Positions 5,980-19,727 are shown, counted from the first letter of the stretch. The stretch: DNA of 46,030 bases from Syntrophothermus sp. (GCA_050260975.1 JBLNCV010000193.1:1-46030), one strand, 5' to 3'. Translations and numbers: made by a program. Notes: a model not told the origin generated them from the sequence alone.

Positions 5980-6594
5980 TCAACTTTCCCATCTCGCTCG
6001 CGCGGCCCGATAGTCTTCAAGGGTGTCAATGTCCACGCAGATTCCGGCAGAATGCGTTTCAAGCACAACCACATCTTCCGGATGTTTATCCAGCAGCACC
6101 TTCCCGCCTTGATCGCCATCCAGACGCATCAGTTCCGGGGCCCAACGCATGTCAAACAATACCGGGTTCCCCCGTACCCCGTGGTAACTCGGTACAATAA
6201 TAGAGCCCGCCCCCGAGCGGTATTCATCGATCAGGGCATCCAAAACCGCAGCCTCTACAAAAGGTTGGTCTCCAAGCACAAAGACCGCGGCGCTGGTTCG
6301 CGGCGGGACCGCGCGCAAGCCGGCGCGTACCGAAGTACTCAACCCTTTTGCGTAATCCGGGTTGTGCACCACAAAAACGCCGTTGGCCCGCCCAATTTCG
6401 GCCACCTCCCGGTGGCCGCAACCGGTTACCAGCAATGCCTCGCCCACTTGCGAAGCCAGAACCTGGCGGATCACCCATTCCACCATCGGCCTGCCGCCCA
6501 GAGGCATGAGAAGTTTCATCCGCGCCGGATACATACGCCGGGATCGGCCCGCCGCCAGGATTATGGCTGTAACCCCCGGAGTACGGCCCACCAA
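5980..6594 (-). CDS. mocA: MobA-like nucleotidyltransferase, probable molybdenum cofactor cytidylyltransferase
   Basis: 204 aa ORF. AIILAAGRSRRM, KLLMPLGGRPMV and VLGDQPFV are NTP_transf_3/MocA-type motifs. SD GAGGGGGTGG lies upstream of the TTG/GTG start. Confidence 0.75.
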   Translation of the reverse strand: MVGRTPGVTAIILAAGRSRRMYPARMKLLMPLGGRPMVEWVIRQVLASQVGEALLVTGCGHREVAEIGRANGVFVVHNPDYAKGLSTSVRAGLRAVPPRTSAAVFVLGDQPFVEAAVLDALIDEYRSGAGSIIVPSYHGVRGNPVLFDMRWAPELMRLDGDQGGKVLLDKHPEDVVVLETHSAGICVDIDTLEDYRAARARWES

Positions 6595-6609
6595 CCGATC
6601 GCCACCCCC

Positions 6610-7491
6610 TCATCGGATCGTTACCCATTCGATGACAGGATCCGGAAGGCCCACGTGACCCAAAAGAAATCCCTGGATATTGGTTTCCTGTATATTCTCC
6701 CGGCCGAAAAGCACGGCCCGGGCAAGTTCCCGTGCCGCCGCCAGGCCGGCCTCATCTTCCACTTTATTGATCAAAGGCACCACCGCCGCTCCAGGCGGCA
6801 CCCCCTTGCACAAGCCGTTCGGGTGCAGGAACAAGTCCACCAGGGCCTGTGCAGTAACCCTCTCCCCCCGTGACAATCCCGTCAATTGAGCCACCAGTTC
6901 CGGCCGGTGCACATAAGCCTCTGTAAGAGGCTTATCCCAGGCATCCCTTCCCAAAACCGGAATCACGAGCCCAGTCGAAGCGGGAATGACCGGTTCGTGC
7001 GGCCCCGGAGCCTTGAGCGGCCGCCCGCGGGCTCCATCGGCCTCCACCAGAATATACTTGACGTGGTGAAAGAGCGCTTGTGACAGACGGTCAATCCAAT
7101 CCGGCGGGATCCCGCGCAACTTGGGCCGGTCTTTGCCGCCATCGTGCAATCCCGCCGCCACCATGATCCGGAGAGCCCGCCTGGCAGCCTGCGCCTGAAC
7201 AACACCTCCGGCTAAGATCTCTTGCAGGGCTTGCAGAATCCGCCCTTCCAGCACCGGATACTCATCCGCCAACACCAGACGGTCCACTTCGCTGGCCCTG
7301 GGCGCAAACATGGCCGTGGTCGTGGTAAGCACCACCGGCCCGGCGACAGCCGCCAGTTCCGCCGCCAGCACATACAAAGCTGTGGTCTTCCCGCCCGCCC
7401 CGGTAAAGGATATAACCCGGCAAACATCCTGGCCCGAAGCCGCTCCAAATTGTTCGGGACCCAGCGCCTCGAGAGCATTAAAAAATTTCAT
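6610..7491 (-). CDS. yqeC: YqeC-family selenium-dependent hydroxylase accessory protein (putative)
   Basis: 293 aa ORF. ISFTGAGGKTTALYVLA (P-loop-like), VLTTTTAMF and ILVEADGARGRPLKAPGPHEPVIP match my recollection of the YqeC family. Confidence 0.7.
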   Translation of the reverse strand: MKFFNALEALGPEQFGAASGQDVCRVISFTGAGGKTTALYVLAAELAAVAGPVVLTTTTAMFAPRASEVDRLVLADEYPVLEGRILQALQEILAGGVVQAQAARRALRIMVAAGLHDGGKDRPKLRGIPPDWIDRLSQALFHHVKYILVEADGARGRPLKAPGPHEPVIPASTGLVIPVLGRDAWDKPLTEAYVHRPELVAQLTGLSRGERVTAQALVDLFLHPNGLCKGVPPGAAVVPLINKVEDEAGLAAARELARAVLFGRENIQETNIQGFLLGHVGLPDPVIEWVTIR

Positions 7492-7534
7492 GTCGAATTA
7501 CGAAAGATTCACAGATGAGCTTCGTGACACATTT

Positions 7535-8224
7535 TCACGGCACCAGCGCGAGCGGACGGATCGGGGAGGCTGTTCCTCCCTCGATCTTCATTATGGTGCA
7601 GATCTGCTGAAACCGCGGCGGCAACCGGTCCAGGTTGGTATAATTTTCCATAACCAGGATGTTACGCGGTTTGGCCCGCATCAAGGTGATGTGGGCCGGA
7701 AATCCCATGTCTTCCGGGTGGTCGAGGTTGATGGTGTCCGTCCCCACCGCCCGCACCCCGCGGTCCCGCAGGAGTTCGGCCCCCGCCTTGTCCAACCCGG
7801 GGTAGTTGTTCCGGTAGTAGTCCCAGTCGTTCCAGTACCTGGGCATGCCGGTGTAAAACAGGACAATGTCGTCCTCTTTGATCCGCTCGCCGGTCTTCTT
7901 CTCCCAGTAAAGAATCTCCTCAACCCCGAAGTGCTCCCCGCCCTTCTTATAGGAGACGTCAACCACCACGGTCTCCCCGATGAGGGCATCCGGCCGCACC
8001 TTCTCCAGGCTGACCCCTTCCGGGTTGAAATGCACCGGCGCATCCATGTGGGTGCCGGTATGCTCGCCGAGGATCAGGGCGTTGGAAACATAGCCGGTCG
8101 GGTTGCCGGCCGCGTCCCGGAAGTCTTCATAGGTCGTCCAGCGTTTCCGGATCGTCACCCGCGGGTACGCCAGAAAAACCGGCATATTTTCCGAGATGGT
8201 CTGGCCCAGGTCGATAAATTTCAT
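7535..8224 (-). CDS. Cyclase-family metal-dependent hydrolase (kynurenine formamidase / isatin hydrolase fold)
   Basis: Carries the HTGTHMDAPVHF (HxGTHxDxPxH) signature. Start placed at MKFIDLGQ (ATG 8224) behind SD GGAGGTGG. The ORF track begins at 8266. Confidence 0.8.
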   Translation of the reverse strand: MKFIDLGQTISENMPVFLAYPRVTIRKRWTTYEDFRDAAGNPTGYVSNALILGEHTGTHMDAPVHFNPEGVSLEKVRPDALIGETVVVDVSYKKGGEHFGVEEILYWEKKTGERIKEDDIVLFYTGMPRYWNDWDYYRNNYPGLDKAGAELLRDRGVRAVGTDTINLDHPEDMGFPAHITLMRAKPRNILVMENYTNLDRLPPRFQQICTIMKIEGGTASPIRPLALVP

Positions 8225-8294
8225 AATGCCACCTCCGAACTTCACCGCTTTTGATTGCAGATCCAACCGGCGATCCAGCGGCCGGAGCAGATTT

Positions 8295-10214
8295 TCACTC
8301 CACCAGCGGCGGCAGGATCCGGTAATTGTTCACATCTATGAGGCCTCGGTCGGTAATCTTCCAGGCAGGGCTGGTCGTCAGAGCCAGAAACGAAAGGTGC
8401 ATGAAGGGAGCATGTAAGGTACAACCCAACTCCTCCTGCATCACCCGGTGCAAAAGTGCGACGCGCCGGCTCAGTTCAGGCCCGCTCAACTCGTCGGTAA
8501 TCAGCCCTGCCACCGGCAGGCGAAGTTCAGCCAGCACCCGGCCGCCTTTCACCACTGCAATCCCGCCGCCTATGGCAATTACTCTGTTCACCGCGCAGGC
8601 CATCTCTTCCGGGTCGGTCCCGGCTACAATGATGTTGTGAGTGTCGTGCGCCACACTTTCGGCAAAGGCGCCGGCCTTCAGCCCGAATCCTTTTACAAAG
8701 GCCCGGCCGATTCCGCCCGATCTGCCGTAGCGTTCCACCACCGCAATTCCGAGGATGTCCGAAGCGGGGTCCGGACAAACTGCCCCGTCCCGGATGGGAA
8801 GCGTCACTTCCAGAGATTCAGTCAGGTTCTGGTCGGGAATGACCACGATAACCCGCGCCCTGGCCAGGCCGTGACCGCCGCCGTAATGGCCGTAGCCAGC
8901 CGAGCCGGCATACCCATGTCCACCAGTGTTGCCGCTCCTATCAATCATCTCGCCGGCCTTCACCGCCAGATCCGCTGCGCTCACCGGCCCGCGCCGGACC
9001 GACATCTTTACGTCAATGGGGTATTCATAGGGCGGCAGCTCCAGAAGCAGCCGCCCGCCTTCGGCGGCCTTGCGCCCCTTGAGATAAACCTGTTCCACAT
9101 TCATCCGGCTCAGGTCCCCGATAATGGCCAGATCGGCCTGTTTGCCGGGAGCCAGCACCCCCACGTGCTCAAAGCCGAAATACGTGGCCGGATTGATGGT
9201 CACCATCTGAATCGCCTCCACCGGATCCACGCCGGCGGCGATCGTCCTGCGCACCACCTCGTTCATATGCCCCGAACGTTCCAGATCCTCGGCCACCATG
9301 TCGTCGGTGGCCAGGATGCACCGCCGGGAGTCCATCCCTTCTTCCGTGACGGCCCGGATGCATTCGGCCATGTTGCGCTGGGTGGAACCCTCCCGCATAA
9401 AGAGGTAGACACCCTGGCGGAGCTTCTCCACCGCCTCTTTCTTGGTGGTGGTCTCGTGGCAGGAGACCCGCCCGCCGCCGCAGATGATATGGGCCGCCAG
9501 AGCATTGCCAAACAGTTCCGGCGCGTTGCCGTCCACCATCTTGCCGATGCTTCTGGCATAGGCGGTGGAAGCCGCCAGATCGTCCACCACTCCCGGATTA
9601 TTGGCATAAACATACCTGGCGTTGCTGAACCCCTGCAGTTCACCAATGCCGATCACATGATAATACCCCAGGAGTTCCTCCATATCTTTGGAGGCGATAT
9701 CGTAGCCGGCGGTCTCCAGCCCCGGCGAGTCGGGGGTTAAAGAGGGAACTACAAAATAAACATTGCTGGGCGCCTGCCTGGCCTCTTCGGTTATGGCCTT
9801 TATCCCGGCGGGGCCAAGGGCGTTGCCGATCTCGTGCGGATCGGCAACCAGCGTGGTAGTCCCCGTGGGGATGGAGAGCCGGGCGAATTCCGAGACGGTC
9901 AGCATGCTGCTTTCAAAATGCATATGAGAATCAATGAATCCAGGGGCCACAAACCGGCCCTGAAGATCAACCACCTCGGTCTTTTCGCCGATCAGATCCG
10001 CCGCATTCCCCACCCGCAGGATCAACTCGCCGGCAATGGCCACATCGCCCGGGTACACCTCGCGGGTGATCACGTTTACGATCCGGCCGTTATTCAGGAC
10101 CAGATCCGCTTTGAGCCGGTCATCCATCAGGATGTCGATGAGCCTTCGCCGGACAATCGCATCTTTGGCCGCCGCCAGCTCCACGGACGCCACCCCCTCG
10201 TCAAAGATCGCCAT
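8295..10214 (-). CDS. Adenine deaminase-family amidohydrolase. Substrate could be adenine or another amino-heterocycle.
   Basis: 639 aa ORF. GFIDSHMHFESSM, ADPHEIGN and the overall layout match the Ade/AdeC family. Contains an unusual Gly/His/Tyr-rich insert, GNTGGHGYAGSAGYGHYGGGHG, encoded at about 8869-8940. Confidence 0.75.
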   Translation of the reverse strand: MAIFDEGVASVELAAAKDAIVRRRLIDILMDDRLKADLVLNNGRIVNVITREVYPGDVAIAGELILRVGNAADLIGEKTEVVDLQGRFVAPGFIDSHMHFESSMLTVSEFARLSIPTGTTTLVADPHEIGNALGPAGIKAITEEARQAPSNVYFVVPSLTPDSPGLETAGYDIASKDMEELLGYYHVIGIGELQGFSNARYVYANNPGVVDDLAASTAYARSIGKMVDGNAPELFGNALAAHIICGGGRVSCHETTTKKEAVEKLRQGVYLFMREGSTQRNMAECIRAVTEEGMDSRRCILATDDMVAEDLERSGHMNEVVRRTIAAGVDPVEAIQMVTINPATYFGFEHVGVLAPGKQADLAIIGDLSRMNVEQVYLKGRKAAEGGRLLLELPPYEYPIDVKMSVRRGPVSAADLAVKAGEMIDRSGNTGGHGYAGSAGYGHYGGGHGLARARVIVVIPDQNLTESLEVTLPIRDGAVCPDPASDILGIAVVERYGRSGGIGRAFVKGFGLKAGAFAESVAHDTHNIIVAGTDPEEMACAVNRVIAIGGGIAVVKGGRVLAELRLPVAGLITDELSGPELSRRVALLHRVMQEELGCTLHAPFMHLSFLALTTSPAWKITDRGLIDVNNYRILPPLVE

Positions 10215-10231: not shown

Positions 10232-10501
10232 CTAGCCACCGATATCGATGGAATCAATAATCCCTACCACGGCGGCATCCACCGGCGTGTCATTCCGCCG
10301 CACCGCCAGTGGTGAGACGCTGCCGGTCACGTACAAAACCCTTTCGCCCACCCCGGCACCCACGGTGTCCACCGCCACCAGCGGGCGGTCGTTGGGCGTC
10401 CCGTCCAAAGCCAGCGGTTGGACGATCAAAAATTTTGAGCCGACCAGTTTCTCATCCTTACGTGTGGCGATCACCGTGCCGATGACCTTACCTACCAGCA
10501 T
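10232..10501 (-). CDS. BMC-P vertex pentamer (EutN/CcmL/PduN family)
   Basis: MLVGKVIGTVIATRKDEKLVGSKFLIVQPL...VAVDTVGAGVGERVLYVTGS is a textbook EutN/CcmL sequence. ATG 10501 is preceded by AAGGGTGG. Confidence 0.9.
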   Translation of the reverse strand: MLVGKVIGTVIATRKDEKLVGSKFLIVQPLALDGTPNDRPLVAVDTVGAGVGERVLYVTGSVSPLAVRRNDTPVDAAVVGIIDSIDIGG

Positions 10502-11444
10502 CGCGCCCACCCTTTCCAGGCCTGATCCGGATCGTTATCCCGCGTTCCCTGGCCACATCCCTGGCCAGGGGCGTGACAATCGTCCCCGGCTCCACCACCA
10601 GTTCAATCTCTTTGCCAGCGCTGCCACCGCCGCCGGCGCCGGCCACCGCCCCTTTGCAAGCCAGCGCCTCTACCTCCGCGCGGGTGATAACCTTCCGGGA
10701 CGCTGCGGAACTCTCCGCTGGGATCCCCTTTAAGACACCCGGCGAGCGAGGTGTCCCGTCCTCCTCCTCGGGCGACGCCGGTTCCCCTGTAAACAGGCCG
10801 GGTAATTCGGCGACATCCACCAGGCGAACCCCATAAGAGGCCAGGATCTTGAGATTCTCTTCCATTCGCTTCACGACGGCGGCGTTTGGCTTGCCGGGAT
10901 CCGGGCCGCCGTTGAGCGCCCGCCCCGTACCATGAAAGATCTGTCCCAAGAAAGAGGGGTCGTGCGGATCCGCCGCGTTACGGGCAGCGGTCACCCTCTT
11001 GCCCGCCAAAAGGCCGTGCCAGATCAGGATGGCCGGCAATGTGTCATGGATCCCGGCCGCCAGTTTGGCCGCCGTATTGGCGGTCAACACCGGGACCACG
11101 ATCTCCTGATGCTCGCGTAAGAGAGTAGCGATCGCGGAAGACGAAGACTCATCACCATCCACGATAATCCGGGACAGCCGGAGTTCTTCCCGGAGGCGGT
11201 CCTGATCCACAAGCCGAGCGGCGGCTTTGGAAAGGACCAGGGCCACCTTCCAGCCTGCTTCCCTTAACCGGCCCAGAAAAGCCAACGCTTCCGCCTGGCC
11301 GGCCTCGCCGCCAGTCATTACCGCCAGCAGGCGCCCGGCGGGGTAACCCCCGGTTGCCCCAGAAGCCTCCAATTGCCGCAGGGTCTGATCCAGCACGTGT
11401 CGGGTCAAACCCTCAAGCCCAAGCCTCTCCTGCATCCCGCTCAC
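10488..11444 (-). CDS. BMC-associated protein: N-terminal amphipathic helix, degenerate flavoprotein-like (Rossmann) domain and a C-terminal V-T-P-L-A-R-D module
   Basis: 318 aa ORF. GLEGLTRHVLDQTLRQLEASGATGG looks like an encapsulation peptide plus linker. VVPVLTANTAAKLAAGIHDT resembles the PF02441 flavoprotein motif. The C-terminal KVITRAEVEAL...LVVEPGTIVTPLARDVARERGITI resembles modules I recall from PduM-type BMC proteins (unverified). Confidence 0.45.
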   Translation of the reverse strand: MSGMQERLGLEGLTRHVLDQTLRQLEASGATGGYPAGRLLAVMTGGEAGQAEALAFLGRLREAGWKVALVLSKAAARLVDQDRLREELRLSRIIVDGDESSSSAIATLLREHQEIVVPVLTANTAAKLAAGIHDTLPAILIWHGLLAGKRVTAARNAADPHDPSFLGQIFHGTGRALNGGPDPGKPNAAVVKRMEENLKILASYGVRLVDVAELPGLFTGEPASPEEEDGTPRSPGVLKGIPAESSAASRKVITRAEVEALACKGAVAGAGGGGSAGKEIELVVEPGTIVTPLARDVARERGITIRIRPGKGGRDAGR

Positions 11445-11475
11445 CCTCTGCCGCCTTCAATCTCCTTCTTCATCC

Positions 11476-11769
11476 TCACTTCTTCATCGTGGCTGCGGCG
11501 GGACCAAGAATGACCCTCTCCACCTCGCTATGCGGCCTGGGGATCACATGAACCGAGACCACTTCGCCGACTTTGGCAGCCGCGGCCGCTCCGGCGTCGG
11601 TCGCCGCCTTGACCGCGCCCACATCGCCGCGGACCATGATGGTCACCAGTCCAAACCCGATCTTTTCATAACCAACAATCGTCACATTGGCCGCCTTGAC
11701 CATGGCATCCGCGGCCTCCACCGCCCCCACCAGACCTTTTGTCTCCACCAGACCCAACGCTTCACCCAT
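11476..11769 (-). CDS. BMC-H shell hexamer (PduA/EutM-like)
   Basis: [60 protein letters not shown] is a canonical single BMC domain. Confidence 0.95.
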
Positions 11770-11770
11770 T

Positions 11771-12178
11771 TTAGGACCTCCTTCTGTTCGGCTTTTCCTT
11801 ATTGGTCTCTTCTACAACCCTGGCTTCCTTTTCATTTCCCACTCTGGCTTCTTTCTCGTTTCCCCGGGATCTTTGGATCACCGACTCCCGCGTCTCCAGA
11901 TTCTGCACCAGATCTTCCATCTGCTCGTGCGGCCGGGGAATTACGTGAACCGACAGCACCTTTCCCACTCTCTCGGCCGCTGCCCTCCCGGCGTCCACCG
12001 CGGCCTGAACCGCGGCAACTTCGCCCTCCAGCTTGGCGGTGATGCTCACCGCTTTCCCCGCCCCAATCACCCTTTCGTAGCCCAGGAATTCCACCCGGGC
12101 GGCTTTCGTGGCCGCATCCACCGCGGCCACCGCCGTGGCAAAACCGATGGTCTCAATCAGGCCAAGGGCACCGGGCAT
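11771..12178 (-). CDS. BMC-H shell hexamer with a charged, repeat-containing C-terminal extension
   Basis: [37 protein letters not shown]...[10 protein letters not shown] is a BMC domain. It is followed by a roughly 45 aa tail containing GNEKEARV twice. Confidence 0.9.
11816..11863 (-). repeat. 2 x 24 nt tandem repeat encoding [16 protein letters not shown] in the BMC-H tail
   Basis: Minus-strand codons gga aac gag aaa gaa gcc aga gtg / gga aat gaa aag gaa gcc agg gtt, read directly from the sequence. Confidence 0.85.
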
Positions 12179-12192
12179 CGCTGATCACCTCT

Positions 12193-12654
12193 TTAAAACG
12201 CCGGTTCCCGGCGCAAACAATGATTACGTGCAAAACACGCCAAGATCTCCCGGACATAATCCGCATGATACGGCGCTTGCCACCGTTCCTCCAGTTCCGA
12301 CGCCAACTCCTCAAGCTCCCCCCTGGTGTAACGGTAAGGCTCCAGGATGTCCCGGAGCTTCTCCTGGACGGCCGGAGTCAAGCTCTCCGCTTCCACCGCC
12401 AGGTGAAGATACCTGGCGACTTCAAGCTGGCCCCGGTTTTCCGCCAGTGTAGCCAGTTGCACCAGCGGCGCAAAGGTTCCAGCCGGCCGGTTGGGTTCCA
12501 CAACTGCCTTGCCTCCACCGGGACGGGCAAGCGTTGCCTCCGGAACAACGACCTCCCCTGCACCGGCATGGACCGGCCTGGAATCAGCCAGCAACCCGGG
12601 ATTTTCCGCCAAAACCTCTTTGATCAATTGAATCAGGGTACTTTTGGCGATCAT
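12193..12654 (-). CDS. Hypothetical BMC-locus protein with an N-terminal encapsulation-peptide-like helix
   Basis: MIAKSTLIQLIKEVLAENPG is an amphipathic helix followed by a Pro/Gly linker, in the style of PduP/PduD encapsulation peptides. I do not recognise the C-terminal domain. ATG 12654 lies behind AGGTGAGG. An alternative GTG at 12663 overlaps the upstream stop. Confidence 0.6.
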   Translation of the reverse strand: MIAKSTLIQLIKEVLAENPGLLADSRPVHAGAGEVVVPEATLARPGGGKAVVEPNRPAGTFAPLVQLATLAENRGQLEVARYLHLAVEAESLTPAVQEKLRDILEPYRYTRGELEELASELEERWQAPYHADYVREILACFARNHCLRREPAF

Positions 12655-12659
12655 CAGCC

Positions 12660-13640
12660 TCACCTGCGCAATTCATCGAGCAGTCCGATACCGACCGATT
12701 TGGCCGCGTCAAGCGCGTTACGGACCGCGGCTGGCGCTCCGGAAACCGTAAGCCACACTTCATTGGAGAAAGCTGAAAGATTGGACGGCCCGAGGTAATG
12801 CGTCGCCTCGACTTTGGCCGTCTTAACCGCCACGTCGGCCATCAAGAGACCAACCCCGGCGGGCGCGCCAATCATGATCCCAAAGGCCTGATCCGGCGTC
12901 GCATTGAAAGCCATGGCCAGCGCTCCGGCGGCCCTGGCGGTGTAATGCACCTCCACAGCCCCCACGTCCGAGGAGGTAACCTCGGTAAAATAATGATCCA
13001 CCGCCGCCAGGCCGATCTGCACCGCGCGGGTCACGTCCGCAACGTCGGGACCGCCGAACAGGATGTAGACGCCGTGCCCCGGCCCACCTAACCCGTCTCT
13101 GGCCATCTGAAGGGCCAGAATCTGTGAATTGGTGGCTTTAACCGCCTCATCCGCCGCCATGATCTGTGGCGCCGCGCCCAGCCGGGAACTGAGTATTCCG
13201 ATGGCGTGGTACCGTTCATCAAGCCCCATCTTGGCCCGCAGGCTCCGCTCCAGATTGGGGATGACCAGACCGATGGTTCCACCGGCAGCCGTGCCGATCA
13301 CCTCTTCCCGGCGGCGGCCGCCACCCGCCACCTGAATGGGATGCTGTACCGGTAGGCCGGTTGGCGCCCTTTTAACCGCCTGAGATATCTGGCCCCGCAC
13401 CAGGCTTTGAGTTGGGTTTGGCGCCGTGCCTTGCGCCGGAGATGGCAACGCCTTTTTCCCGGCTCCTGGTTCGACAGGCTGTAACGGGTTGCGCGCAACC
13501 GGGTACTCATCGGGCAACAAGCTTTTTCCTTCCCCAAAAGCGGAACTTTGCCCAAAATCAGCTTTCAGCCTGCTTGCGGAAGAAGAGCCGGTCCGCCTGA
13601 GGATCTCCGCCATGACCTTCTGCACCAGAGGATCCGCCAA
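12660..13640 (-). CDS. BMC-T shell trimer, PduB-like (tandem permuted BMC domains), with a long N-terminal extension
   Basis: The C-terminal roughly 210 aa (GTIGLVIPNLERSL...HAIGILSSRLGAAPQIMAADEAVKATN...GPGHGVYILFGG...HYTARAAGALAMAFNA...GAPAGVGLLMADVAVKTAKVE...FSNEVWLTVSGAPAAVRNALDAAKSVG) follow the PduB pattern. The N-terminal roughly 115 aa have the helix DPLVQKVMAEILRR followed by a Pro-rich linker. Confidence 0.85.
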   Translation of the reverse strand: MADPLVQKVMAEILRRTGSSSASRLKADFGQSSAFGEGKSLLPDEYPVARNPLQPVEPGAGKKALPSPAQGTAPNPTQSLVRGQISQAVKRAPTGLPVQHPIQVAGGGRRREEVIGTAAGGTIGLVIPNLERSLRAKMGLDERYHAIGILSSRLGAAPQIMAADEAVKATNSQILALQMARDGLGGPGHGVYILFGGPDVADVTRAVQIGLAAVDHYFTEVTSSDVGAVEVHYTARAAGALAMAFNATPDQAFGIMIGAPAGVGLLMADVAVKTAKVEATHYLGPSNLSAFSNEVWLTVSGAPAAVRNALDAAKSVGIGLLDELRR

Positions 13641-13713
13641 GGTTCAATCACCACCTTTACCGTTCTTGCAATGCCACAAACTCACGAGGATTACGCGACG
13701 AGAACCATGAGAA

Positions 13714-14013
13714 TCATTCCTGACCCGATTCGTCGACAACAGGCAACATCTTGGCCACCTCGCTGTTGGGGCTGGGGATCACGTTCACGGAGATCACTTC
13801 TCCCACCTGCATGGCGGCTTGTTCACCGGCCTGGGTGGCGGCCTGCACCGCCGCGACTTCACCCTGGACGGTGATGCAGATCAGCCCGGAACCTACCTGC
13901 TTGTAATCGATAATCTGCACATTGGCCGCCTTGACCATGGCATCCGCCGCCGCAATGGCCGCGGGCAGGCCCCTGGTCTCCACAAATCCCAGCGCTTTGC
14001 GCAACTGACTCAC
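13714..14013 (-). CDS. BMC-H shell hexamer
   Basis: [57 protein letters not shown] is a canonical BMC domain. Confidence 0.95.
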   Translation of the reverse strand: MSQLRKALGFVETRGLPAAIAAADAMVKAANVQIIDYKQVGSGLICITVQGEVAAVQAATQAGEQAAMQVGEVISVNVIPSPNSEVAKMLPVVDESGQE

Positions 14014-14050: not shown

Positions 14051-15403
14051 TCACCAGCCGTCCTCCAGATAGTCCTCCAACCGTATCCGGTCGCTCCCCG
14101 GAATCACCGGTCGCTGGAAGACCTCCGCCGCGTTCAGCGGGTAAGTGGCATCGATCCCCATCTTGGCCGAGTACCCCCGCAGGTTGTTGGACGGATCCAG
14201 CCCATTCCCACGGGCGCCGGGAATGATCACCACATCCTGGTCGGCCTGGACCCGGCTGGCGATCGCCCATTCCACCTCAAAGGGGTCGAAGATGTCCACG
14301 TCGTCGTCCACAACTACCACATGCTTCACGTCTTTATTGCTGGCAAGAGCCGCCATGATGGCGCTCTTGCCCTCACCCTCGTACTTCTTCTGGATGGAGA
14401 CGATGGCATGGAAACGTCCGCTGCCGGCCATGGTAAGGTGTACGGCCTTCACGTCCGGCACGATATGCCGGACGTGCAAAAAGAGCAAAACCTCTCGCAT
14501 CAGGGCATTGGGCAACTTGTGTTCAAAACTGGAAGGAAAGATCGTCTGGAAGATCGGGTTATTCCGGTGTGTAATCGCGCTGATCTCCACCACCGGCTGC
14601 TCGGAGGCTGGTCCGTAATACCCGGCCAGCTCCCCGAAGGGCCCTTCCTTATACCGCACGTAGGGCAGCATCCGGCCTTCCAGCACGATCTCCGCCTCAG
14701 CCGGCACCTCCAGATCCACCGTCCGGCAACGCACCAGTTCCACCGGCTGGCCGGCGAGAGCACCCGCCACGTCGATCTTGTCCAGGCCGAAGTGCTGGGT
14801 GCTGAGTTGCGAGGCCAGGGTAATGATCGGGTGCACCCCGAGCATCACCGCCACCTCGAGAGGCCGGTTTTGCGCCTCATAGTCGCGGTACATCTGCATC
14901 AGGCCCGGCGACTCGATGAGAATCGACAGCCGGTTGCCACCGTTGACCTGCATCCGGCGGATGGACGTGTAGCGTCGGCCCCCCGCCGGATCCTTCACGA
15001 TCAACACCCCGGCGGTGATAAAGGGCGCCGAGTCCTTTTCGTGAAAAGTGGGCACGGGGAAGAGCTTCGGGATGTCTATTCCCCTGGTGATGACCGTCTC
15101 CTGGACCGGCCCGCCGGAGACCACCCGGCTCGGCAAAGGCGAGGAGATGGCTTCAATATACTTGGGGATGAGCTCATCAACCTTCACCCCCAGGGTCTCG
15201 GCAACCCGCCGGCGATCCCCGCAAAGCCCCGCCGCCACCGGCTGGCTATAGCCCTGCACATGTTCAAAGAAGATCGGGCGAGTTCCTTTAAACTTGTTCA
15301 CCAGGGCGCCCAGTTCGAATCTGGCATCCACCGGACGCCTGACGATTAACAGGTCGTTCTTGCGCTTCAGGTTTTCCAGGTGCTTGCGCAACGAGAGGGT
15401 CAT
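14051..15403 (-). CDS. UbiD-family prFMN-dependent (de)carboxylase
   Basis: 450 aa ORF. The N-terminal LRKHLENLKRKNDLLIVRRPVD and the length and pattern throughout fit the UbiD family. It sits directly downstream of ubiX. Confidence 0.85.
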   Translation of the reverse strand: MTLSLRKHLENLKRKNDLLIVRRPVDARFELGALVNKFKGTRPIFFEHVQGYSQPVAAGLCGDRRRVAETLGVKVDELIPKYIEAISSPLPSRVVSGGPVQETVITRGIDIPKLFPVPTFHEKDSAPFITAGVLIVKDPAGGRRYTSIRRMQVNGGNRLSILIESPGLMQMYRDYEAQNRPLEVAVMLGVHPIITLASQLSTQHFGLDKIDVAGALAGQPVELVRCRTVDLEVPAEAEIVLEGRMLPYVRYKEGPFGELAGYYGPASEQPVVEISAITHRNNPIFQTIFPSSFEHKLPNALMREVLLFLHVRHIVPDVKAVHLTMAGSGRFHAIVSIQKKYEGEGKSAIMAALASNKDVKHVVVVDDDVDIFDPFEVEWAIASRVQADQDVVIIPGARGNGLDPSNNLRGYSAKMGIDATYPLNAAEVFQRPVIPGSDRIRLEDYLEDGW

Positions 15404-15432
15404 GATCCTTGCCCCCTATATTCAGGTCCTTG

Positions 15433-15984
15433 TTAGTTCCCCCAGCGGGGAAAGATATCGTGGTCGATCTCCAGCACATCCAGGATCTTGCCCACCACAA
15501 AAGTGATCGCCTGGGCCAGATCCCGGGGCCGGTGATAGAAGGCCGGCGAGGCCGGGAGGATGTGGGCGCCGGCTCTTGCCAGCCGCAACATATTCTCCAG
15601 GTGGATTACATCCAGGGGGGTCTCCCTGGGCACCACCACCAGTTTCCGGCCTTCTTTGAGCATCACATGGGCGGAGCGGGTCAACAGGCTGTCCGACAAA
15701 CCCCCGGCCAAGGCCCCCAGCGTATGCATGGAGCAGGGAACCACAACCATGGCCTCCGCGCGAAACGAACCGCTGGCCAGTGGGGAAAACAGGTCGTCCA
15801 CCTGATGCAATCGGGCAAAACGGCCAAGATCCCGCACCATTAGCCCACATTCGTGGCGCAGAGTTCGCTCGCCCATGGACGTCACCACCAGATGCGTCTC
15901 AATCTGTAGATTTTCCAGCGCCTGTAACAGGCCCACGGCATAGATAGCGCCACTGGCTCCGGTGACACCCACCACGACCCGCAT
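15433..15984 (-). CDS. ubiX: UbiX flavin prenyltransferase (prFMN synthase)
   Basis: MRVVVGVTGASGAIYAVGLLQAL...VVPCSMHTLGALAGGLSDSLLTRSAHVMLKEGRKLVVVPRETP is the classic UbiX/Pad1 sequence. ATG 15984 follows SD AAGGTGGG. Confidence 0.9.
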   Translation of the reverse strand: MRVVVGVTGASGAIYAVGLLQALENLQIETHLVVTSMGERTLRHECGLMVRDLGRFARLHQVDDLFSPLASGSFRAEAMVVVPCSMHTLGALAGGLSDSLLTRSAHVMLKEGRKLVVVPRETPLDVIHLENMLRLARAGAHILPASPAFYHRPRDLAQAITFVVGKILDVLEIDHDIFPRWGN

Positions 15985-16040
15985 TTGCAACCCACCTTAC
16001 AATCCGCCACAATCAGCCCGTAGAAATATTCCAGAAAATT

Positions 16041-16063
16041 CCCGGCGGTTTACCGCCGGCCGG
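16041..16063 (-). terminator. GC-rich hairpin downstream of the isochorismatase-family gene (weak terminator/attenuator candidate)
   Basis: Minus strand reads CCGGCCGGCGG-TAAA-CCGCCGGG followed by AAUUUUCUGG. The U-tract has only four Us. Confidence 0.3.
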
Positions 16064-16082
16064 TAAGACCGCCCCAACCAAT

Positions 16083-16646
16083 TCAAGCGGTTTTGGCCTT
16101 CTCTTTTGCGAACTCCTTCTTATACTCGTCCACCGTCATGATCCGGGCGAAGAGGGCCATATCCCGCAACCCGGCCTGGTGCATCTCCTCATCCTTGGAA
16201 GCGCAACCGTCGCTGATGGCGATCACCCGGTAAGCATGGTAGAGCGCCTCGGAAGCAGTGCTCCTCACGCAGACGTTGGTCCACACGCCAGTGACCACCA
16301 CCGTGTCTATCCCTTCCTCGCGGAGGTACAGGTCCATATCAGTGTACGTGAATGAACTATGCCGTCTCTTCTGGACCACATAATCCTTGTCGCTCGGGCG
16401 CAACTCGGGCACAAAGTCCGAACCCCAGGTGCCTTTGATGGCATGCACCGGCCGCACCTTGAAATCGGCGTCGCCCACCCGGTGCGCCTCCTGGACAAAG
16501 ACCACGTGGATGTCGTTCTCATGGGCAAAATCCACCAGTTCCCGGATCTTCGGAATGATCTTCTGCCCGTCCGGGCAGAAGAGGGCCCCTTTGGGGTCCA
16601 CAAAGTCATTCAACATGTCGATGACCAAAATAGCGTGCTTGCTCAT
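16083..16646 (-). CDS. Isochorismatase-family cysteine hydrolase (RutB / N-carbamoylsarcosine amidase / nicotinamidase-like)
   Basis: 187 aa ORF. AILVIDMLNDF (Asp), VVQKRRHSSF (Lys) and VVTGVWTNVCV (nucleophilic Cys) form the D-K-C triad. Confidence 0.85.
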   Translation of the reverse strand: MSKHAILVIDMLNDFVDPKGALFCPDGQKIIPKIRELVDFAHENDIHVVFVQEAHRVGDADFKVRPVHAIKGTWGSDFVPELRPSDKDYVVQKRRHSSFTYTDMDLYLREEGIDTVVVTGVWTNVCVRSTASEALYHAYRVIAISDGCASKDEEMHQAGLRDMALFARIMTVDEYKKEFAKEKAKTA

Positions 16647-16708: not shown

Positions 16709-18121
16709 CTAGAATTTCAGGACCCGGTCCAGACGGCTGATGGTCTGCCTCTTTACGAACTCGCCGTAGCCAGGCCGGCCCACAATACCCTTGCCGTCTT
16801 CATAAACCACCTTGCCCCGGACAATGGTCTTCACCGGTTTGCCCCGCAATTTCATGCCGTGCAGCGGGGTGTACTTGGCCATGGTGTACATCTTGTCCTT
16901 GTCGATGGTCCACTCGTAATTGAGGTCGATAACGGTGAGATCCGCGTCGGAACCGATCTCCATGCCTCCCTTCTTCGGATAAAGCCCGTAATGGATAGCC
17001 GGGTTTTTGGAGAGCACCTCCACCAGCCGCGACAGGGAGATGCGGCCCTTGTTGTACCCCTCGCTGACAATTACCGGTACCATGGTCTCCGTGCCCGGAA
17101 TCCCGGGGAAACTGTTCCAGATGTGCATGCCAGGTGCGGTCTTTTCGGTGGGAATCTCATACGGCGCGTGATCCGTGGCCACGAAATCGATTCGCCCATC
17201 GGCCAGCGCCTTCCAGTGCTCGACGTTGTCCTCTTTGCCCCGAAGCGGCGGCGCGATCTTGGCGAAGGACCCGAAACGGGTCATGGCGTCCTGGGCGTTA
17301 ATAGTCAGATAATGCGGGCAGGTCTCGGCGGTCACCGGCAAGCCGCGCTTCTTGGCCTCGCCGATCAGGATCGCCCCCTCCTTGGTGCTCATATGCACCA
17401 CATGCATCCGTACCCCGGTGTACTCGGCGAAGCTGATCACCATTTCGATGGCGACCTTTTCGGCAAGGCTCAACCGGGCCTCGGCCCAGGCCGGGCCGTC
17501 CATCCGCCCATCGGCCTGCAACTTCTGGACATAAAAATCGCAGAGGTTGTAGTTCTCCGCGTGAACACCCACCGGCAGGCCGGTCTTGGCTACCTCCTTG
17601 AAGATCTCCAGCATCTCGGCGTCGGAGACCCTGGGGTAGGTGGGTACAGACGGCGTCATGTAGACCTTGAAGGCCACCACTCCCGCGTCAGCCTGCTTCT
17701 GCACATGCTCCAGAGCGTGATTGCGGACATCCTCGCCGGTCACGCCGCCCCACATGGCGTAATCTACGACGGCCTTGTTCTTTACGGCCTCCAGCTTGTT
17801 TTCCAACTGGGCAACCGTCCGCACCGAAGGATTGCTGGTGCAGGGCATGTCGATCACCGTGGTCACGCCGCCGCTGGCCGCCGCGCTGGTGCCGGTCTCA
17901 AAATTTTCCCGGTGGGTGAAACCCGGATCGTTGATATGGGTGTGTGAGTCGATGCAACCCGGGATGACCAGGTTGCCGCCGGCATCGATGACTTCTCTTG
18001 AATCCACATCCGCCGTGGGTGAAAAGCCGGCGATCTTTCCGTCCCGGATCAGGATATTGGTCTCCACCATCCTGTCGCCCTGCGGGATCTGAGCGTTCTT
18101 TACCAGCACATCAACCTTCAT
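16709..18121 (-). CDS. Cyclic amidohydrolase (dihydropyrimidinase / allantoinase / hydantoinase type)
   Basis: 470 aa ORF. GCIDSHTHIN (HxH), AFKVYM (lysine to be carbamylated), GVHAEN, HVVHMST and ATDHAP are the binuclear-metal amidohydrolase motifs of this subfamily. Confidence 0.85.
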   Translation of the reverse strand: MKVDVLVKNAQIPQGDRMVETNILIRDGKIAGFSPTADVDSREVIDAGGNLVIPGCIDSHTHINDPGFTHRENFETGTSAAASGGVTTVIDMPCTSNPSVRTVAQLENKLEAVKNKAVVDYAMWGGVTGEDVRNHALEHVQKQADAGVVAFKVYMTPSVPTYPRVSDAEMLEIFKEVAKTGLPVGVHAENYNLCDFYVQKLQADGRMDGPAWAEARLSLAEKVAIEMVISFAEYTGVRMHVVHMSTKEGAILIGEAKKRGLPVTAETCPHYLTINAQDAMTRFGSFAKIAPPLRGKEDNVEHWKALADGRIDFVATDHAPYEIPTEKTAPGMHIWNSFPGIPGTETMVPVIVSEGYNKGRISLSRLVEVLSKNPAIHYGLYPKKGGMEIGSDADLTVIDLNYEWTIDKDKMYTMAKYTPLHGMKLRGKPVKTIVRGKVVYEDGKGIVGRPGYGEFVKRQTISRLDRVLKF

Positions 18122-18193: not shown

Positions 18194-19096
18194 TCACAGC
18201 CCGTACAGGTGATTCTCGAGAATCTGGTTCCGGTCAAACCCCTCAAGTTGCAGGAAGTATTCCAGCGAATTAACCAGCGATTCCATGGGCACCACGCCCA
18301 CCAGTTGGGTGCCCACCACTGGCACGCCGTAGCGGGCCGCCTCCATCTTGATGACCTCAAAAGTACGGTAGAGCGGCGTAGCCACGTAATCAAACATGTT
18401 CATGGAGACCACCACCTGCTTGCGTTCCTCAAAACGCAGGCCCACCGAGCGCACGGTGGTAAAGCCGCCGCTGGGCCCGCGCACAATCCTGGCGATGGAT
18501 TTGGCAATCTCCAGGTTATCCGTACCCAAAATGACGTTGAAAGCCACCAGCGGGTTGGTGCCGGCGCTGACGATCACCGCCCCGGCGGTAGGATGCAAAG
18601 CGGCCGGCCCGATGTCCGGCGCCCGCTCCGGCGTGTGCGCCACCTTTTTGAGCCCCTCGTACTGACCCTGGCGTATGTAATCCAGAACCTTGCGCTCCGG
18701 GGTGCGGGCATTCTCGCCGGTAAAGTAGACGGGCACCTTAAACCTTTTATAGACTTCCTGGCCGATCTCTTCCGCCAGGTTCACACACTCCCCTAGCGTG
18801 ATGTTTTTGAGAGGAAAGATGGGAATGGTATCCTGGGCGCCGATACGCGGATGGGAGCCGGTTTGTTCCTCCATATTGATAAGTTCGATGGATTTGCCCG
18901 CCATGTTCAGAAGAGCTTCTTTCAGCGGCTGCGGCTGGCCGATGAGCGTCACCACCGTCCGGTTGAAGTCGGGGTCGGGGGCGTAGTCCAGGAGTTTCAC
19001 TCCGGGAATGTTGCGCGCCTGATCCACCACGGCTTCGATTACCTCTTTGCGGCGGCCGTCGCTGAAGTTCGGCACCGCCTGAATGTACTTCTGCAT
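18194..19096 (-). CDS. Formiminotransferase (FtcD N-terminal domain type, stand-alone)
   Basis: 300 aa ORF. MQKYIQAVPNFSDGRRKEVIEAVV...DPDFNRTVVTLIG matches the glutamate formimidoyltransferase domain. There is no cyclodeaminase domain. SD AGGGAGGGA lies upstream. Confidence 0.85.
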   Translation of the reverse strand: MQKYIQAVPNFSDGRRKEVIEAVVDQARNIPGVKLLDYAPDPDFNRTVVTLIGQPQPLKEALLNMAGKSIELINMEEQTGSHPRIGAQDTIPIFPLKNITLGECVNLAEEIGQEVYKRFKVPVYFTGENARTPERKVLDYIRQGQYEGLKKVAHTPERAPDIGPAALHPTAGAVIVSAGTNPLVAFNVILGTDNLEIAKSIARIVRGPSGGFTTVRSVGLRFEERKQVVVSMNMFDYVATPLYRTFEVIKMEAARYGVPVVGTQLVGVVPMESLVNSLEYFLQLEGFDRNQILENHLYGL

Positions 19097-19113
19097 ACCA
19101 GTCCCTCCCTGTA

Positions 19114-19162: not shown

Positions 19163-19205
19163 AGCCAAAATAAATGAGAGAGACGCAATCAGCATCCCTC
19201 TCATA
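19163..19205 (-). terminator. Intrinsic terminator forming the riboswitch expression platform
   Basis: The RNA AUGAGAGGGA-UGCUGAUUGCG-UCUCUCUCAU forms a 10 bp stem and is followed by UUAUUUUGG. Its 5' arm is the 3' strand of aptamer helix P1, so the two structures are mutually exclusive. Confidence 0.75.
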
Positions 19206-19267
19206 GCCAGGCGGTTTACGGCTGCCCGGTAGAAACTCTCGGCCCATATCGCCGAGGATATATGAGA
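19199..19267 (-). promoter_or_regulatory. Purine riboswitch aptamer, guanine/hypoxanthine/xanthine class (C at the specificity position)
   Basis: Minus-strand RNA: UCUCAUA UAUC CUCGGC-GAUAUGG-GCCGAG AGUUUCUAC CGGGCAG-CCGUAAA-CCGCCUG GC UAUGAGA. Compared with the B. subtilis xpt G-box, L2 AUAUGG, J2/3 GUUUCUAC, L3 CCGUAAA and the J3/1 C before UAUG are all conserved. P1 has 7 bp and P2 has 6 bp. Confidence 0.85.
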
Positions 19268-19727
19268 CCGGCAAAAACCGTTATGGATTTGAGAGTATCA
19301 TGCTCTCGCACCGTGACGACTTCCCGGACTTTAGTCCGAGGCTTCTCGGTTCATTTGCAGGCACCAGCGTACCCACATCCCCGAAGGCTCCGTCCGAGCC
19401 CTTGTTCTTTGCTGGCTTAGCTCATAAACTTCTCGGCTATATATTTTCGCGGGACCTGGCAAAACTCCTTCTTAAATAAACCAAATTTGCCAGAAAATCT
19501 GTTTATGTAGGATGACTTCTAGCCCCTTTGCCTTTGTATGAACAAGCGTTTTGTCAATTTACTTTTCCGATGACTTGTCCACCCTGCCTTTGTTCGCGGC
19601 GGCTCTCATTACCGGATAAATAAACTCTAAATGGGAAAATCTATCTCGATGGCGAAGAGAGGTCCAACCAACCACTCTACACTATATGCAGATCAAATAT
19701 ACAGGCCAAGGTAAAGGAGAATCGCCC

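What the first reader, a model, noticed from the sequence alone, without database searches (positions are those of the whole stretch)
19163..19267. Guanine-class purine riboswitch wired as a transcriptional ON switch in front of the microcompartment operon
Seen: the minus-strand RNA UCUCAUAUAUCCUCGGCGAUAUGGGCCGAGAGUUUCUACCGGGCAGCCGUAAACCGCCUGGCUAUGAGA reproduces the xpt G-box core. That includes L2 AUAUGG, J2/3 GUUUCUAC, L3 CCGUAAA and the specificity C before the 3' P1 strand. The position equivalent to A73 is G here, and J1/2 is UAUC rather than UAAU. The 3' strand of P1 (UAUGAGA) is also the 5' arm of a 10 bp terminator, AUGAGAGGGA...UCUCUCUCAU, followed by UUAUUUU. Inference: ligand-stabilised P1 should prevent terminator formation and so turn expression ON. 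This fits a catabolic operon induced by guanine, hypoxanthine or xanthine. Most characterised guanine-class members are OFF switches. The J1/2 and J3/1 deviations raise the possibility of altered ligand preference, for example xanthine or an oxidised purine.
Basis: partly seen in the sequence, partly recalled or inferred. Interest (0 to 1): 0.68.

Follow-up and report, generated by a model that had tools for sequence, protein, structure and literature searches.

The report
Purine ON-riboswitch before xanthine microcompartment operon
This is an ordinary guanine-type purine riboswitch wired so that purine binding should turn on a 19-kb operon for a protein-shelled purine-degrading compartment; its two sequence oddities are common natural variation, not signs of a new ligand.

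Summary
Window 19184-19285 (minus strand) matches Rfam RF00167 (Purine) at 74.9 bits against a threshold of 37. The four ligand-contacting bases (U22, U47, U51, C74) are intact, and J2/3 and J3/1 have canonical lengths. It is therefore a guanine-I aptamer, not xanthine-II, guanine-II, 8-oxoguanine or adenine class.

A 13-bp terminator (19174-19204) followed by UUAUUUU uses 6 of the 7 bases of the P1 3' strand. P1 and the terminator are therefore mutually exclusive, which gives ON logic. That logic is inferred, not assayed.

Downstream lies a 22-gene, co-directional Xau (xanthine-utilisation) microcompartment cluster. It encodes FtcD, an AllB-like amidohydrolase, UbiX/UbiD, shell proteins, adenine deaminase and a selenium-dependent xanthine dehydrogenase.

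The altered-ligand idea is not supported:
- Four close relatives carry the same riboswitch with canonical A73.
- G73 occurs in about 9% and U24 in about 27% of sampled guanine-type aptamers, including ones upstream of biosynthetic genes.
- Both variations were already described in 2007.

More distant Xau loci carry a xanthine-II riboswitch, others a PucR-family regulator gene or no detectable riboswitch. Verdict: a new member of a known kind, of moderate interest.

The parts
19184..19285 (-). Full Rfam RF00167 (Purine riboswitch aptamer) match
   Evidence: cmscan 74.9 bits, gathering score 37, E = 1.3e-11, model positions 1-102
19261..19267 (-). P1 5' strand, UCUCAUA
   Evidence: cmscan alignment; coordinates
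19258..19260 (-). J1/2: U22 A23 U24. U24 replaces the commoner A24.
   Evidence: U24 occurs in 34 of 124 sampled aptamers.
19237..19257 (-). P2-L2 hairpin: CCUCGGC GAUAUGG GCCGAGA. The first pair, C25/A45, is a mismatch.
   Evidence: The same UAUC + A45 configuration occurs in about 9% of the sample.
19229..19236 (-). J2/3, GUUUCUAC. U47 and U51 are intact and there is no insertion.
   Evidence: Class definitions from PMC9295807 and PMC10556655.
19208..19228 (-). P3-L3 hairpin: CGGGCAG CCGUAAA CCGCCUG
19206..19207 (-). J3/1: G73 (19207) and the specificity base C74 (19206)
   Evidence: Close relatives have A73.
19199..19205 (-). P1 3' strand, UAUGAGA. Six of its bases (19199-19204) also belong to the terminator 5' arm.
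19174..19204 (-). Intrinsic terminator hairpin: 13 bp, loop UGAUU. Its 3' arm repeats the UCUCAU of the P1 5' strand.
   Evidence: Terminator scan. The terminator forms in the minimum-free-energy fold of the leader. The hairpin alone is -20.4 kcal/mol.
19167..19173 (-). U-tract, UUAUUUU
19102..19109 (-). Ribosome-binding site GGGAGGGA of the first gene
   Evidence: Sequence
18194..19096 (-). First regulated gene: glutamate/glycine formimidoyltransferase (FtcD)
   Evidence: Pfam FTCD_N and FTCD. TIGR02024 scores 355.7 bits against a cut-off of 221.
16709..18121 (-). AllB-like cyclic amidohydrolase
   Evidence: Pfam Amidohydro_1. TIGR03178 allantoinase AllB scores 374 bits against a cut-off of 357.85.
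14051..16646 (-). Isochorismatase-family hydrolase (16083-16646), UbiX flavin prenyltransferase (15433-15990), UbiD-family decarboxylase (14051-15403)
10232..14013 (-). Microcompartment shell and associated genes: BMC-domain proteins (13714-14013, 12660-13640, 11771-12178, 11476-11769), a small-subunit-like protein (12193-12663), a flavoprotein-like protein (10488-11444), and the EutN/CcmL vertex protein (10232-10510)
   Evidence: Pfam BMC, EutN_CcmL, Dehydratase_SU and Flavoprotein
357..10214 (-). Adenine deaminase (8295-10214), cyclase-family hydrolase, YqeC, a 134-aa ORF with no family match (6224-6628), XdhC, YqeB, and xanthine-dehydrogenase-type molybdenum hydroxylase subunits (357-4255)

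Best explanation
The element is a guanine-I-type purine riboswitch in the 5' leader of a roughly 19-kb Xau (xanthine-utilisation) microcompartment operon of an uncultured spore-forming Bacillota bacterium. It is most likely a transcriptional ON switch.

Shown by the sequence and tools:
- The aptamer has an intact guanine pocket.
- A 13-bp terminator plus U-tract has a 5' arm that contains 6 of the 7 bases of the P1 3' strand.
- The terminator's 3' arm repeats the UCUCAU of the P1 5' strand.

Inferred mechanism:
- Without ligand, the terminator displaces P1 and transcription stops before ftcD.
- When a 6-oxopurine occupies the pocket during transcription, P1 is locked. Only a 7-bp residual hairpin can then form, 6 nt away from the U-tract, and the polymerase reads through into the catabolic and shell genes.
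- The likely ligands are guanine first, then hypoxanthine and xanthine at higher concentrations.
- The decision window between completion of P1 and completion of the terminator is only about 25 nt. The terminator state is also about 7.5 kcal/mol more stable in secondary-structure energy. The switch should therefore be kinetically controlled and need ligand well above its Kd, which suits induction of a catabolic pathway by abundant purine.

G73 and U24/C25 are ordinary natural variation. At most they tune affinity.
For: - Aptamer identity: RF00167 at 74.9 bits. U22, U47, U51 and C74 are present, J2/3 is 8 nt and J3/1 is 2 nt.
- Terminator: detected.
- Folding: the aptamer alone folds as the canonical three-way junction at -25.6 kcal/mol. 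The 111-nt leader's minimum-free-energy fold (-43.5 kcal/mol) keeps P2 and P3 but replaces P1 with the terminator. With P1 enforced the energy is -36.0 kcal/mol, leaving a truncated hairpin displaced from the U-tract.
- Close relatives: aptamer and terminator are conserved base for base in four relatives, with changes only in the terminator loop, U48 and position 73.
- Independent lineages: terminators that overlap the 3' half of a purine-type aptamer recur beside other Xau loci. These are the xanthine-II type in L003 and L060, and the guanine-I type in six Cytobacillus-type Bacillales loci (L011, L013-L015, L019, L028) and in L012 and L026.
- Experimental precedent: the same architecture was shown to act as an ON switch for 8-oxoG riboswitches (PMC10556655). 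It is predicted to be ON for xanthine-II and guanine-II (PMC9295807).
- Ligand range: guanine-I aptamers bind guanine at about 8 nM and xanthine at about 3 uM by ITC (PMC12445698).
- Operon content. It matches the Xau microcompartment locus of Ravcheev et al. 2019 (PMC6620236).
Against: - No binding or termination assay exists for this RNA.
- The promoter was not located. No good sigma-70 match lies between 19286 and 19680.
- A73G abolished 2-aminopurine binding in the B. subtilis xpt context (PMC2018637). This particular allele might therefore bind weakly.
- Conservation among the close relatives is near-identity, so there are no compensatory changes to prove the terminator stem.
- A terminator-like hairpin at 16042-16059 could limit how far read-through extends.
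Confidence: 0.72

Rival explanations
1. Altered-specificity variant. G73 together with the UAUC J1/2 would shift the pocket towards xanthine, uric acid or another oxidised purine, making this a new ligand class.
For: - The operon degrades xanthine.
- Guanine-II and xanthine-II carry G at the position equivalent to A73 (PMC12445698).
- Peripheral junction bases can change specificity in this scaffold (same paper).
- Related Xau loci L003 and L060 use a xanthine-selective class.
Against: - All four ligand-contacting bases are those of guanine-I, and there are no junction insertions.
- The closest relatives have A73 with an otherwise identical aptamer.
- G73 occurs in 9 of 105 sampled aptamers and U24 in 34 of 124.
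- G73 aptamers also sit before purL-like genes, permeases and transporters.
- The natural G73 aptamer (LM-pbuG) binds 2-aminopurine about as well as xpt, and the natural U24 aptamer (BS-yxjA) binds guanine tightly (PMC2018637).
- Guanine-II has G at this position yet rejects xanthine.
Confidence: 0.08
2. Weakened or decaying switch. The lineage-specific A73G substitution impairs ligand binding in this sequence context. The leader then terminates mostly constitutively, or it responds only to very high purine levels.
For: - A73G in xpt abolished measurable 2-aminopurine binding, and the effect depends on context (PMC2018637).
- G73 is derived relative to four relatives.
- The default fold is the terminator.
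Against: - The same allele occurs on three independent contigs: the window, L001 and L002.
- The whole 22-gene cluster has intact reading frames.
- Natural G73 aptamers are functional elsewhere.
Confidence: 0.12
3. The hairpin is not the regulatory output. Control would instead act through translation or Rho, or the aptamer would act as an OFF switch through an unrecognised alternative pairing.
For: - The U-tract is interrupted (UUAUUUU).
- About 70 nt separate the terminator from the start codon.
- The promoter and the 5' end of the transcript are unknown.
Against: - The ribosome-binding site GGGAGGGA does not pair with aptamer strands in the predicted folds.
- The direct P1/terminator overlap leaves no room for the anti-antiterminator arrangement of OFF switches.
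- The hairpin is the strongest terminator-like site in 19 kb.
Confidence: 0.05

Closest known systems
Guanine-I riboswitch (B. subtilis xpt-pbuX G box; Rfam RF00167)
   Same: It has the same three-stem junction, the L2-L3 loop motifs, U22/U47/U51/C74, an 8-nt J2/3 and a 2-nt J3/1. The Rfam score is 74.9 bits.
   Different: In xpt and the other characterised members, P1 acts as an anti-antiterminator, giving OFF control of biosynthesis, salvage and transport genes. Here P1 competes directly with the terminator, giving ON logic, and the target is a catabolic microcompartment operon. This element also has G73, U24 and a C25/A45 mismatch.
pbuE (ydhL) adenine riboswitch, the classic transcriptional ON purine switch (Mandal & Breaker 2004, cited in PMC12445698)
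   Same: The expression-platform logic is the same: the terminator's 5' arm is built from the 3' part of the aptamer, so ligand binding disrupts the terminator.
   Different: pbuE has U74 (adenine) and controls an efflux pump. Its terminator also invades P3 (from my own knowledge). Here only P1 is invaded and the specificity base is C74.
Xanthine-II riboswitch (Paenibacillus allB; PMC9295807)
   Same: It has the same scaffold, is predicted to be ON, and shares the gene neighbourhood (AllB-annotated amidohydrolase, xanthine dehydrogenase). Related Xau loci L003 and L060 carry this class directly upstream of the AllB-like gene.
   Different: Xanthine-II has U51G, a 2-nt insertion in J2/3 and a roughly 4-nt insertion in J3/1, and it rejects guanine. 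The window element has none of these features.
8-oxoguanine riboswitch (PMC10556655)
   Same: It is a guanine-I derivative in which P1 (and P3) compete with the terminator. It was shown to be an ON switch for a purine-catabolic gene both in vitro and in vivo.
   Different: It is defined by loss of U47. The window element retains U47.
Listeria monocytogenes pbuG and B. subtilis yxjA guanine aptamers (PMC2018637)
   Same: These are natural guanine-I aptamers that carry G73 (LM-pbuG) or U24 (BS-yxjA) and still bind ligand.
   Different: They are OFF switches on transport genes, and neither is reported to combine both substitutions.
Xau (xanthine-utilisation) bacterial microcompartment locus (Ravcheev et al. 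2019, PMC6620236)
   Same: The gene set is the same: formimidoyltransferase, two or three amidohydrolases, UbiD decarboxylase, BMC-domain and EutN shell proteins, and xanthine dehydrogenase.
   Different: That paper reports no regulatory RNA. Many loci of this type have a PucR-family regulator gene or no detectable riboswitch.

Membership tests
Purine riboswitch RF00167, guanine-I class | Covariance-model score at or above Rfam's gathering threshold, with a full three-stem junction | tested here: met
   74.9 bits against 37, model positions 1-102
Purine riboswitch RF00167, guanine-I class | Ligand-contacting nucleotides U22, U47, U51 and C74 | tested here: met
   UAU..., GUUUCUAC and GC-UAUGAGA read directly from the sequence
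Purine riboswitch RF00167, guanine-I class | J2/3 of 8 nt and J3/1 of 2 nt, with no insertions | tested here: met
Purine riboswitch RF00167, guanine-I class | Conserved L2/L3 loop-loop motifs | tested here: met
   L2 is GAUAUGG and L3 is CCGUAAA, matching the Rfam consensus
Purine riboswitch RF00167, guanine-I class | Nanomolar guanine binding, with weaker hypoxanthine and xanthine binding | not testable with these tools
   Needs in-line probing or ITC
Xanthine-II riboswitch | U51G, plus a 2-nt insertion in J2/3 and an insertion in J3/1 | tested here: not met
   The window has GUUUCUAC and a 2-nt J3/1. Definition from PMC9295807 and PMC12445698.
Guanine-II riboswitch | U51 retained, with a 1-nt J2/3 insertion and a 3-4-nt J3/1 insertion | tested here: not met
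   No insertions. Definition.
8-oxoguanine riboswitch | Absence of U47 | tested here: not met
   J2/3 is G46 U47 U48 U49 C50 U51 A52 C53. Definition.
Adenine riboswitch | U at position 74 | tested here: not met
   C at 19206
Transcriptional ON riboswitch (terminator-disruption platform, pbuE type) | Intrinsic terminator (stem plus U-tract) between aptamer and start codon | tested here: met
   13-bp stem plus UUAUUUU
Transcriptional ON riboswitch (terminator-disruption platform, pbuE type) | The terminator's 5' arm shares nucleotides with the P1 3' strand, so the two helices are mutually exclusive | tested here: met
   Six shared bases at 19199-19204. Free and P1-constrained folds compared.
Transcriptional ON riboswitch (terminator-disruption platform, pbuE type) | Ligand-dependent read-through | not testable with these tools
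   Needs single-round transcription or reporter assays
Xau bacterial microcompartment locus | BMC-domain and EutN shell genes clustered with FtcD, cyclic amidohydrolases, UbiD/UbiX and xanthine dehydrogenase | tested here: met
   The same gene order appears in about 50 genome loci.

The most novel reading that the evidence does not exclude
The G73 / U24 / C25-A45 combination might be an adaptive retuning of a guanine-I pocket rather than neutral drift. It would lower affinity or relax the guanine-over-xanthine preference, so that the ON switch fires only at the high xanthine or hypoxanthine levels relevant to catabolism. That would be a naturally tuned "catabolic" subtype of guanine-I, parallel to the xanthine-II solution used in sister Xau loci.
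Probability: 0.12. Interest if true: 0.5.

Novelty: new member of a known kind. Interest (0 to 1): 0.38.

Why it matters
The Xau microcompartment was assigned to anaerobic xanthine degradation from enzyme homology alone (PMC6620236).

A purine-sensing riboswitch at the head of the operon is independent, ligand-level evidence that its substrate is a purine. So are the xanthine-selective xanthine-II riboswitches at the same place in sister loci. These RNAs also name the likely inducers, which makes induction of this uncharacterised organelle directly testable.

The finding adds a clear natural example of a guanine-I aptamer wired as an ON switch. The characterised guanine-I members I read about are OFF switches (PMC2018637, PMC9295807, PMC11477304).

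It also shows that one catabolic locus can be governed by guanine-I, by xanthine-II, or apparently by a PucR-type protein regulator or no detectable riboswitch, depending on the lineage.

The aptamer itself is not new. Any Rfam-based annotation pipeline would call it.

Tried and rejected
- **Other RNA families in the leader.** An E-value-mode Rfam scan of 18900-19900 found only RF00167.
- **Membership of xanthine-II, guanine-II, 8-oxoG or adenine classes.** Rejected on their defining bases.
- **Pairing or covariation between U24 and G73.** There is no association in 105 aptamers (1, 30, 8, 66; Fisher p = 0.28). Mulhbacher & Lafontaine 2007 also found none.
- **G73 as a marker of catabolic or ON contexts.** Rejected, because G73 aptamers also precede purL-like, AzgA-permease and ABC-transporter genes.
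- **Promoter location.** No convincing sigma-70 site lies between the aptamer and gerA. The only minus-strand hit (19709-19681) lies about 400 nt upstream.
- **The GC-rich 120-nt segment upstream of the aptamer.** It is not repeated elsewhere in the window or in the loci first fetched.
- **The inverted repeat CTGGCAAA...TTTGCCAG.** Its core (TGGCAA...TTGCCA) was not found upstream of any other fetched Xau operon, and the close relatives carry only diverged versions of it; the only two exact matches lie inside genes.
- **Automatic ON/OFF classification.** My classifier is noisy. It flagged 12 metagenome aptamers as ON-like, but several are false, for example an xpt leader (L201). I use it only to say that ON-wired guanine-type aptamers are a minority, roughly 5-10%.
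- **Riboswitches in other clostridial Xau loci.** An Rfam scan of seven loci found none.
- **Literature search.** Searches combining microcompartment, xanthine and riboswitch returned nothing relevant.

Full report
**Observation**

On the minus strand, window 19199-19267 reads UCUCAUA-UAU-CCUCGGC-GAUAUGG-GCCGAGA-GUUUCUAC-CGGGCAG-CCGUAAA-CCGCCUG-GC-UAUGAGA. Rfam cmscan reports one family for the whole 46-kb window: RF00167 (Purine) at 19184-19285, 74.9 bits against a gathering score of 37, E = 1.3e-11, full model length. A permissive rescan of the leader added nothing.

The consensus scan finds a 13-pair hairpin at 19174-19204 (AUGAGAGGGAUGC, loop UGAUU, GCGUCUCUCUCAU) followed by UUAUUUU. It is the strongest terminator-like site between 1 and 19400.

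**Which purine class**

The published definitions are as follows.
- Xanthine-II: U51G plus insertions in J2/3 and J3/1.
- Guanine-II: U51 retained but with insertions.
- 8-oxoG: loss of U47.
- Adenine: U74.

These come from PMC9295807, PMC10556655 and PMC12445698. The window has G46-U47-U48-U49-C50-U51-A52-C53, a two-base J3/1 and C74. It therefore fails each variant test and meets the sequence criteria of guanine-I.

**The two deviations**

G73 and U24/C25 are not ligand contacts. I tested them in three ways.

1. Close relatives. Four contigs whose FtcD is 92-94% identical to the window's carry the same aptamer and terminator. In all four, position 73 is the canonical A. The only other differences are U48 to A, two positions in P3 and the terminator loop. 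G73 is therefore a recent single substitution.
2. An unselected sample. A metagenome pattern scan anchored on L2, J2/3 and L3 returned 120 loci, which I aligned with a covariance model. Among 105 distinct C74 aptamers, position 73 is A in 91, G in 9 (three of these have guanine-II-like insertions) and U in 5. Among 124 distinct aptamers, position 24 is A in 88 and U in 34. The exact UAUC + A45 arrangement occurs in about 9%. U24 and G73 are not associated (p = 0.28). G73 aptamers precede purL-like genes, AzgA-type permeases and an ABC transporter, as well as catabolic genes.
3. Literature. Mulhbacher & Lafontaine 2007 (PMC2018637) reported that positions 24, 48 and 73 are the least conserved core positions (24 = W, 73 about 90% A). 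Natural U24 (BS-yxjA) and G73 (LM-pbuG) aptamers bind well. A73G or A24U placed in the xpt aptamer abolishes 2-aminopurine binding, so the effect depends on context. Guanine-II and xanthine-II both carry G at the A73-equivalent position.

Together these results remove the basis for proposing a new ligand. They leave open a quantitative effect on affinity.

**Expression platform**

The aptamer alone folds into the canonical junction (-25.6 kcal/mol). Once the downstream 40 nt are added, the minimum-free-energy structure keeps P2 and P3 but swaps P1 for the terminator. The energies are -43.5 kcal/mol for the free fold and -36.0 kcal/mol with P1 enforced; the 116-nt version gives -46 kcal/mol with z = -3.4.

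Six of the seven P1 3'-strand bases (19199-19204) are the outer part of the terminator's 5' arm. The terminator's 3' arm repeats the UCUCAU of the P1 5' strand. With P1 held, only a 7-bp hairpin remains, separated from the U-tract by UCUCAU, which is not a canonical terminator geometry.

This is the terminator-disruption (ON) design. It has been demonstrated for 8-oxoG riboswitches and predicted for xanthine-II and guanine-II. It is the opposite of the anti-antiterminator design of characterised guanine-I switches (PMC2018637; PMC11477304). My inference is that the short decision window and the energetic advantage of the terminator imply kinetic control.

**What it controls**

Seventy nucleotides downstream, after a GGGAGGGA ribosome-binding site, begins a tightly packed, co-directional 22-gene cluster (357-19096, minus strand). 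In order it encodes:
- FtcD;
- an amidohydrolase that passes NCBI's AllB cut-off;
- an isochorismatase-family hydrolase;
- UbiX and UbiD;
- four BMC-domain proteins and an EutN vertex protein;
- adenine deaminase;
- a cyclase-family hydrolase;
- YqeC, XdhC and YqeB (selenium-dependent molybdenum-cofactor maturation);
- four xanthine-dehydrogenase-type subunits.

This is the Xau microcompartment locus of Ravcheev et al. 2019, whose paper mentions no riboswitch. No PucR-type regulator was found among the window's main ORFs.

**Comparative picture**

A genome-collection scan with a UbiD alignment returned 80 loci. About 50 of them are Xau microcompartment loci with the same gene order, in Clostridia, Tissierellia, Peptostreptococcaceae and also Bacillales.

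Covariance-model and Rfam searches found purine-type aptamers in only some of them:
- L003 and L060 are the nearest species-level relatives in that collection. They carry an aptamer with GUUUCGACC and a ...CCAGGC J3/1, matching xanthine-II numbering (G37, C39, C40-G62, G63, C64). It lies directly upstream of the AllB-like gene, with a long terminator that spans the P3 and P1 3' strands.
- Six Cytobacillus-type Bacillales loci (L011, L013-L015, L019, L028) carry canonical guanine-I aptamers (A73, one with U73) with overlapping terminators, upstream of the divergent xdh genes.
- L012, L026 and L047 carry further examples.

Seven clostridial Xau loci have no Rfam riboswitch, and one locus has a PucR-family regulator gene. 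ON-wired purine sensing of this pathway is therefore recurrent but lineage-specific. The "allB" association published for xanthine-II probably refers to this same amidohydrolase family.

**Ligand**

Guanine-I aptamers bind guanine at about 8 nM and xanthine at about 3 uM by ITC. In C. difficile, individual guanine-I switches respond preferentially to different purines in vivo. The operon includes adenine deaminase and xanthine dehydrogenase, which funnel purines to xanthine. A sensor that responds broadly to 6-oxopurines is therefore a sensible inducer. This is inference.

**Verdict**

The ON-switch reading and the operon assignment are supported by sequence, folding and comparative evidence, but not by experiment. 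The altered-ligand speculation is not supported.

The element is a new member of a known kind. Its main value is as regulatory evidence for the substrate and inducers of the Xau microcompartment.

Noticed in passing
L003:2970-3047 (+) and L060:4129-4205 (+): Xanthine-II-type aptamers (GUUUCGACC J2/3, CCAGGC J3/1) lie directly upstream of the AllB-like amidohydrolase inside Xau microcompartment loci of the nearest genome relatives. Their long terminators span the P3 and P1 3' strands, giving ON logic. The window's AllB-like gene passes TIGR03178, so the published "allB" association of xanthine-II probably refers to this family.
   Followed up: partly
L011, L013, L014, L015, L019, L028 (about 4870-6260, minus strand): Cytobacillus-type Bacillales carry Xau microcompartment loci. 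A canonical guanine-I aptamer with an overlapping (ON-type) terminator sits upstream of the divergent xanthine dehydrogenase genes. L019 has U at position 73.
   Followed up: partly
L012:2783-2856 (-): A purine aptamer in which the G46-C53 junction pair is swapped to C46-G53 (CUUUCUAG), a compensatory change. It has G73 and a 26-pair overlapping terminator, and lies upstream of an AzgA/NCS2-type permease.
   Followed up: partly
L154:484-556 (-): A guanine-type aptamer whose P1 3' strand is part of an 11-bp terminator, the same ON design as the window. It lies upstream of an IMP dehydrogenase (guaB) gene. That direction of control is unexpected for a biosynthetic gene.
   Followed up: no
L103:1247-1622 (+): Three purine-type aptamers in tandem within about 380 nt. 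Two of them have an unusual L3 (CCCUAAA / CCCUAAG) and a ...CGC / ...UGC J3/1.
   Followed up: no
window 19114-19141 (-): A 12-nt direct repeat, GCCTCATACATT, occurs twice (19130-19141 and 19114-19125) between the terminator and the ribosome-binding site. Close relatives have a single copy.
   Followed up: partly
window 19456-19493 (-): An inverted repeat, CTGGCAAA-N22-TTTGCCAG, lies about 190 nt upstream of the aptamer inside a block conserved in the close relatives. It could be an operator or part of the promoter region. Its core was not found upstream of other Xau operons.
   Followed up: partly
window 19300-19420 (-): A GC-rich, strongly folding 120-nt segment (-42 kcal/mol) lies between the conserved upstream block and the aptamer. 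It is shared with relative L087. L083 and L085 have a shorter, largely unrelated sequence at this position, and L088 lacks it altogether. It is not repeated elsewhere in the window.
   Followed up: partly
window 16042-16059 (-): A GC-rich 7-bp hairpin (CCGGCGG-TAAA-CCGCCGG) plus GAAUUUUCUG lies in the 92-nt gap between the isochorismatase-family gene and ubiX. It could be an internal attenuator or an RNA-stabilising element within the operon.
   Followed up: no
window 15422-15990 (-): Two overlapping minus-strand ORFs occupy this stretch. The 185-aa ORF (15433-15990, TTG start) is the real gene, a UbiX flavin prenyltransferase (217 bits). The 142-aa ATG ORF has no family match.
   Followed up: yes
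window 4182-7491 (-): YqeB (TIGR03309) and YqeC lie next to XdhC and the molybdenum hydroxylase subunits. This points to a selenium-dependent molybdenum hydroxylase, as in purinolytic clostridia.
   Followed up: partly
window 19686-24451 (+), 26016-29874 (-), 38895-42063 (-): Three neighbouring gene groups were seen. A GerA/GerB/GerC-type spore germination operon runs divergently from the riboswitch. Two YheC/D ATP-grasp genes sit with a lysine-2,3-aminomutase-like radical SAM gene. There are also three tandem M42 aminopeptidase paralogues.
   Followed up: no
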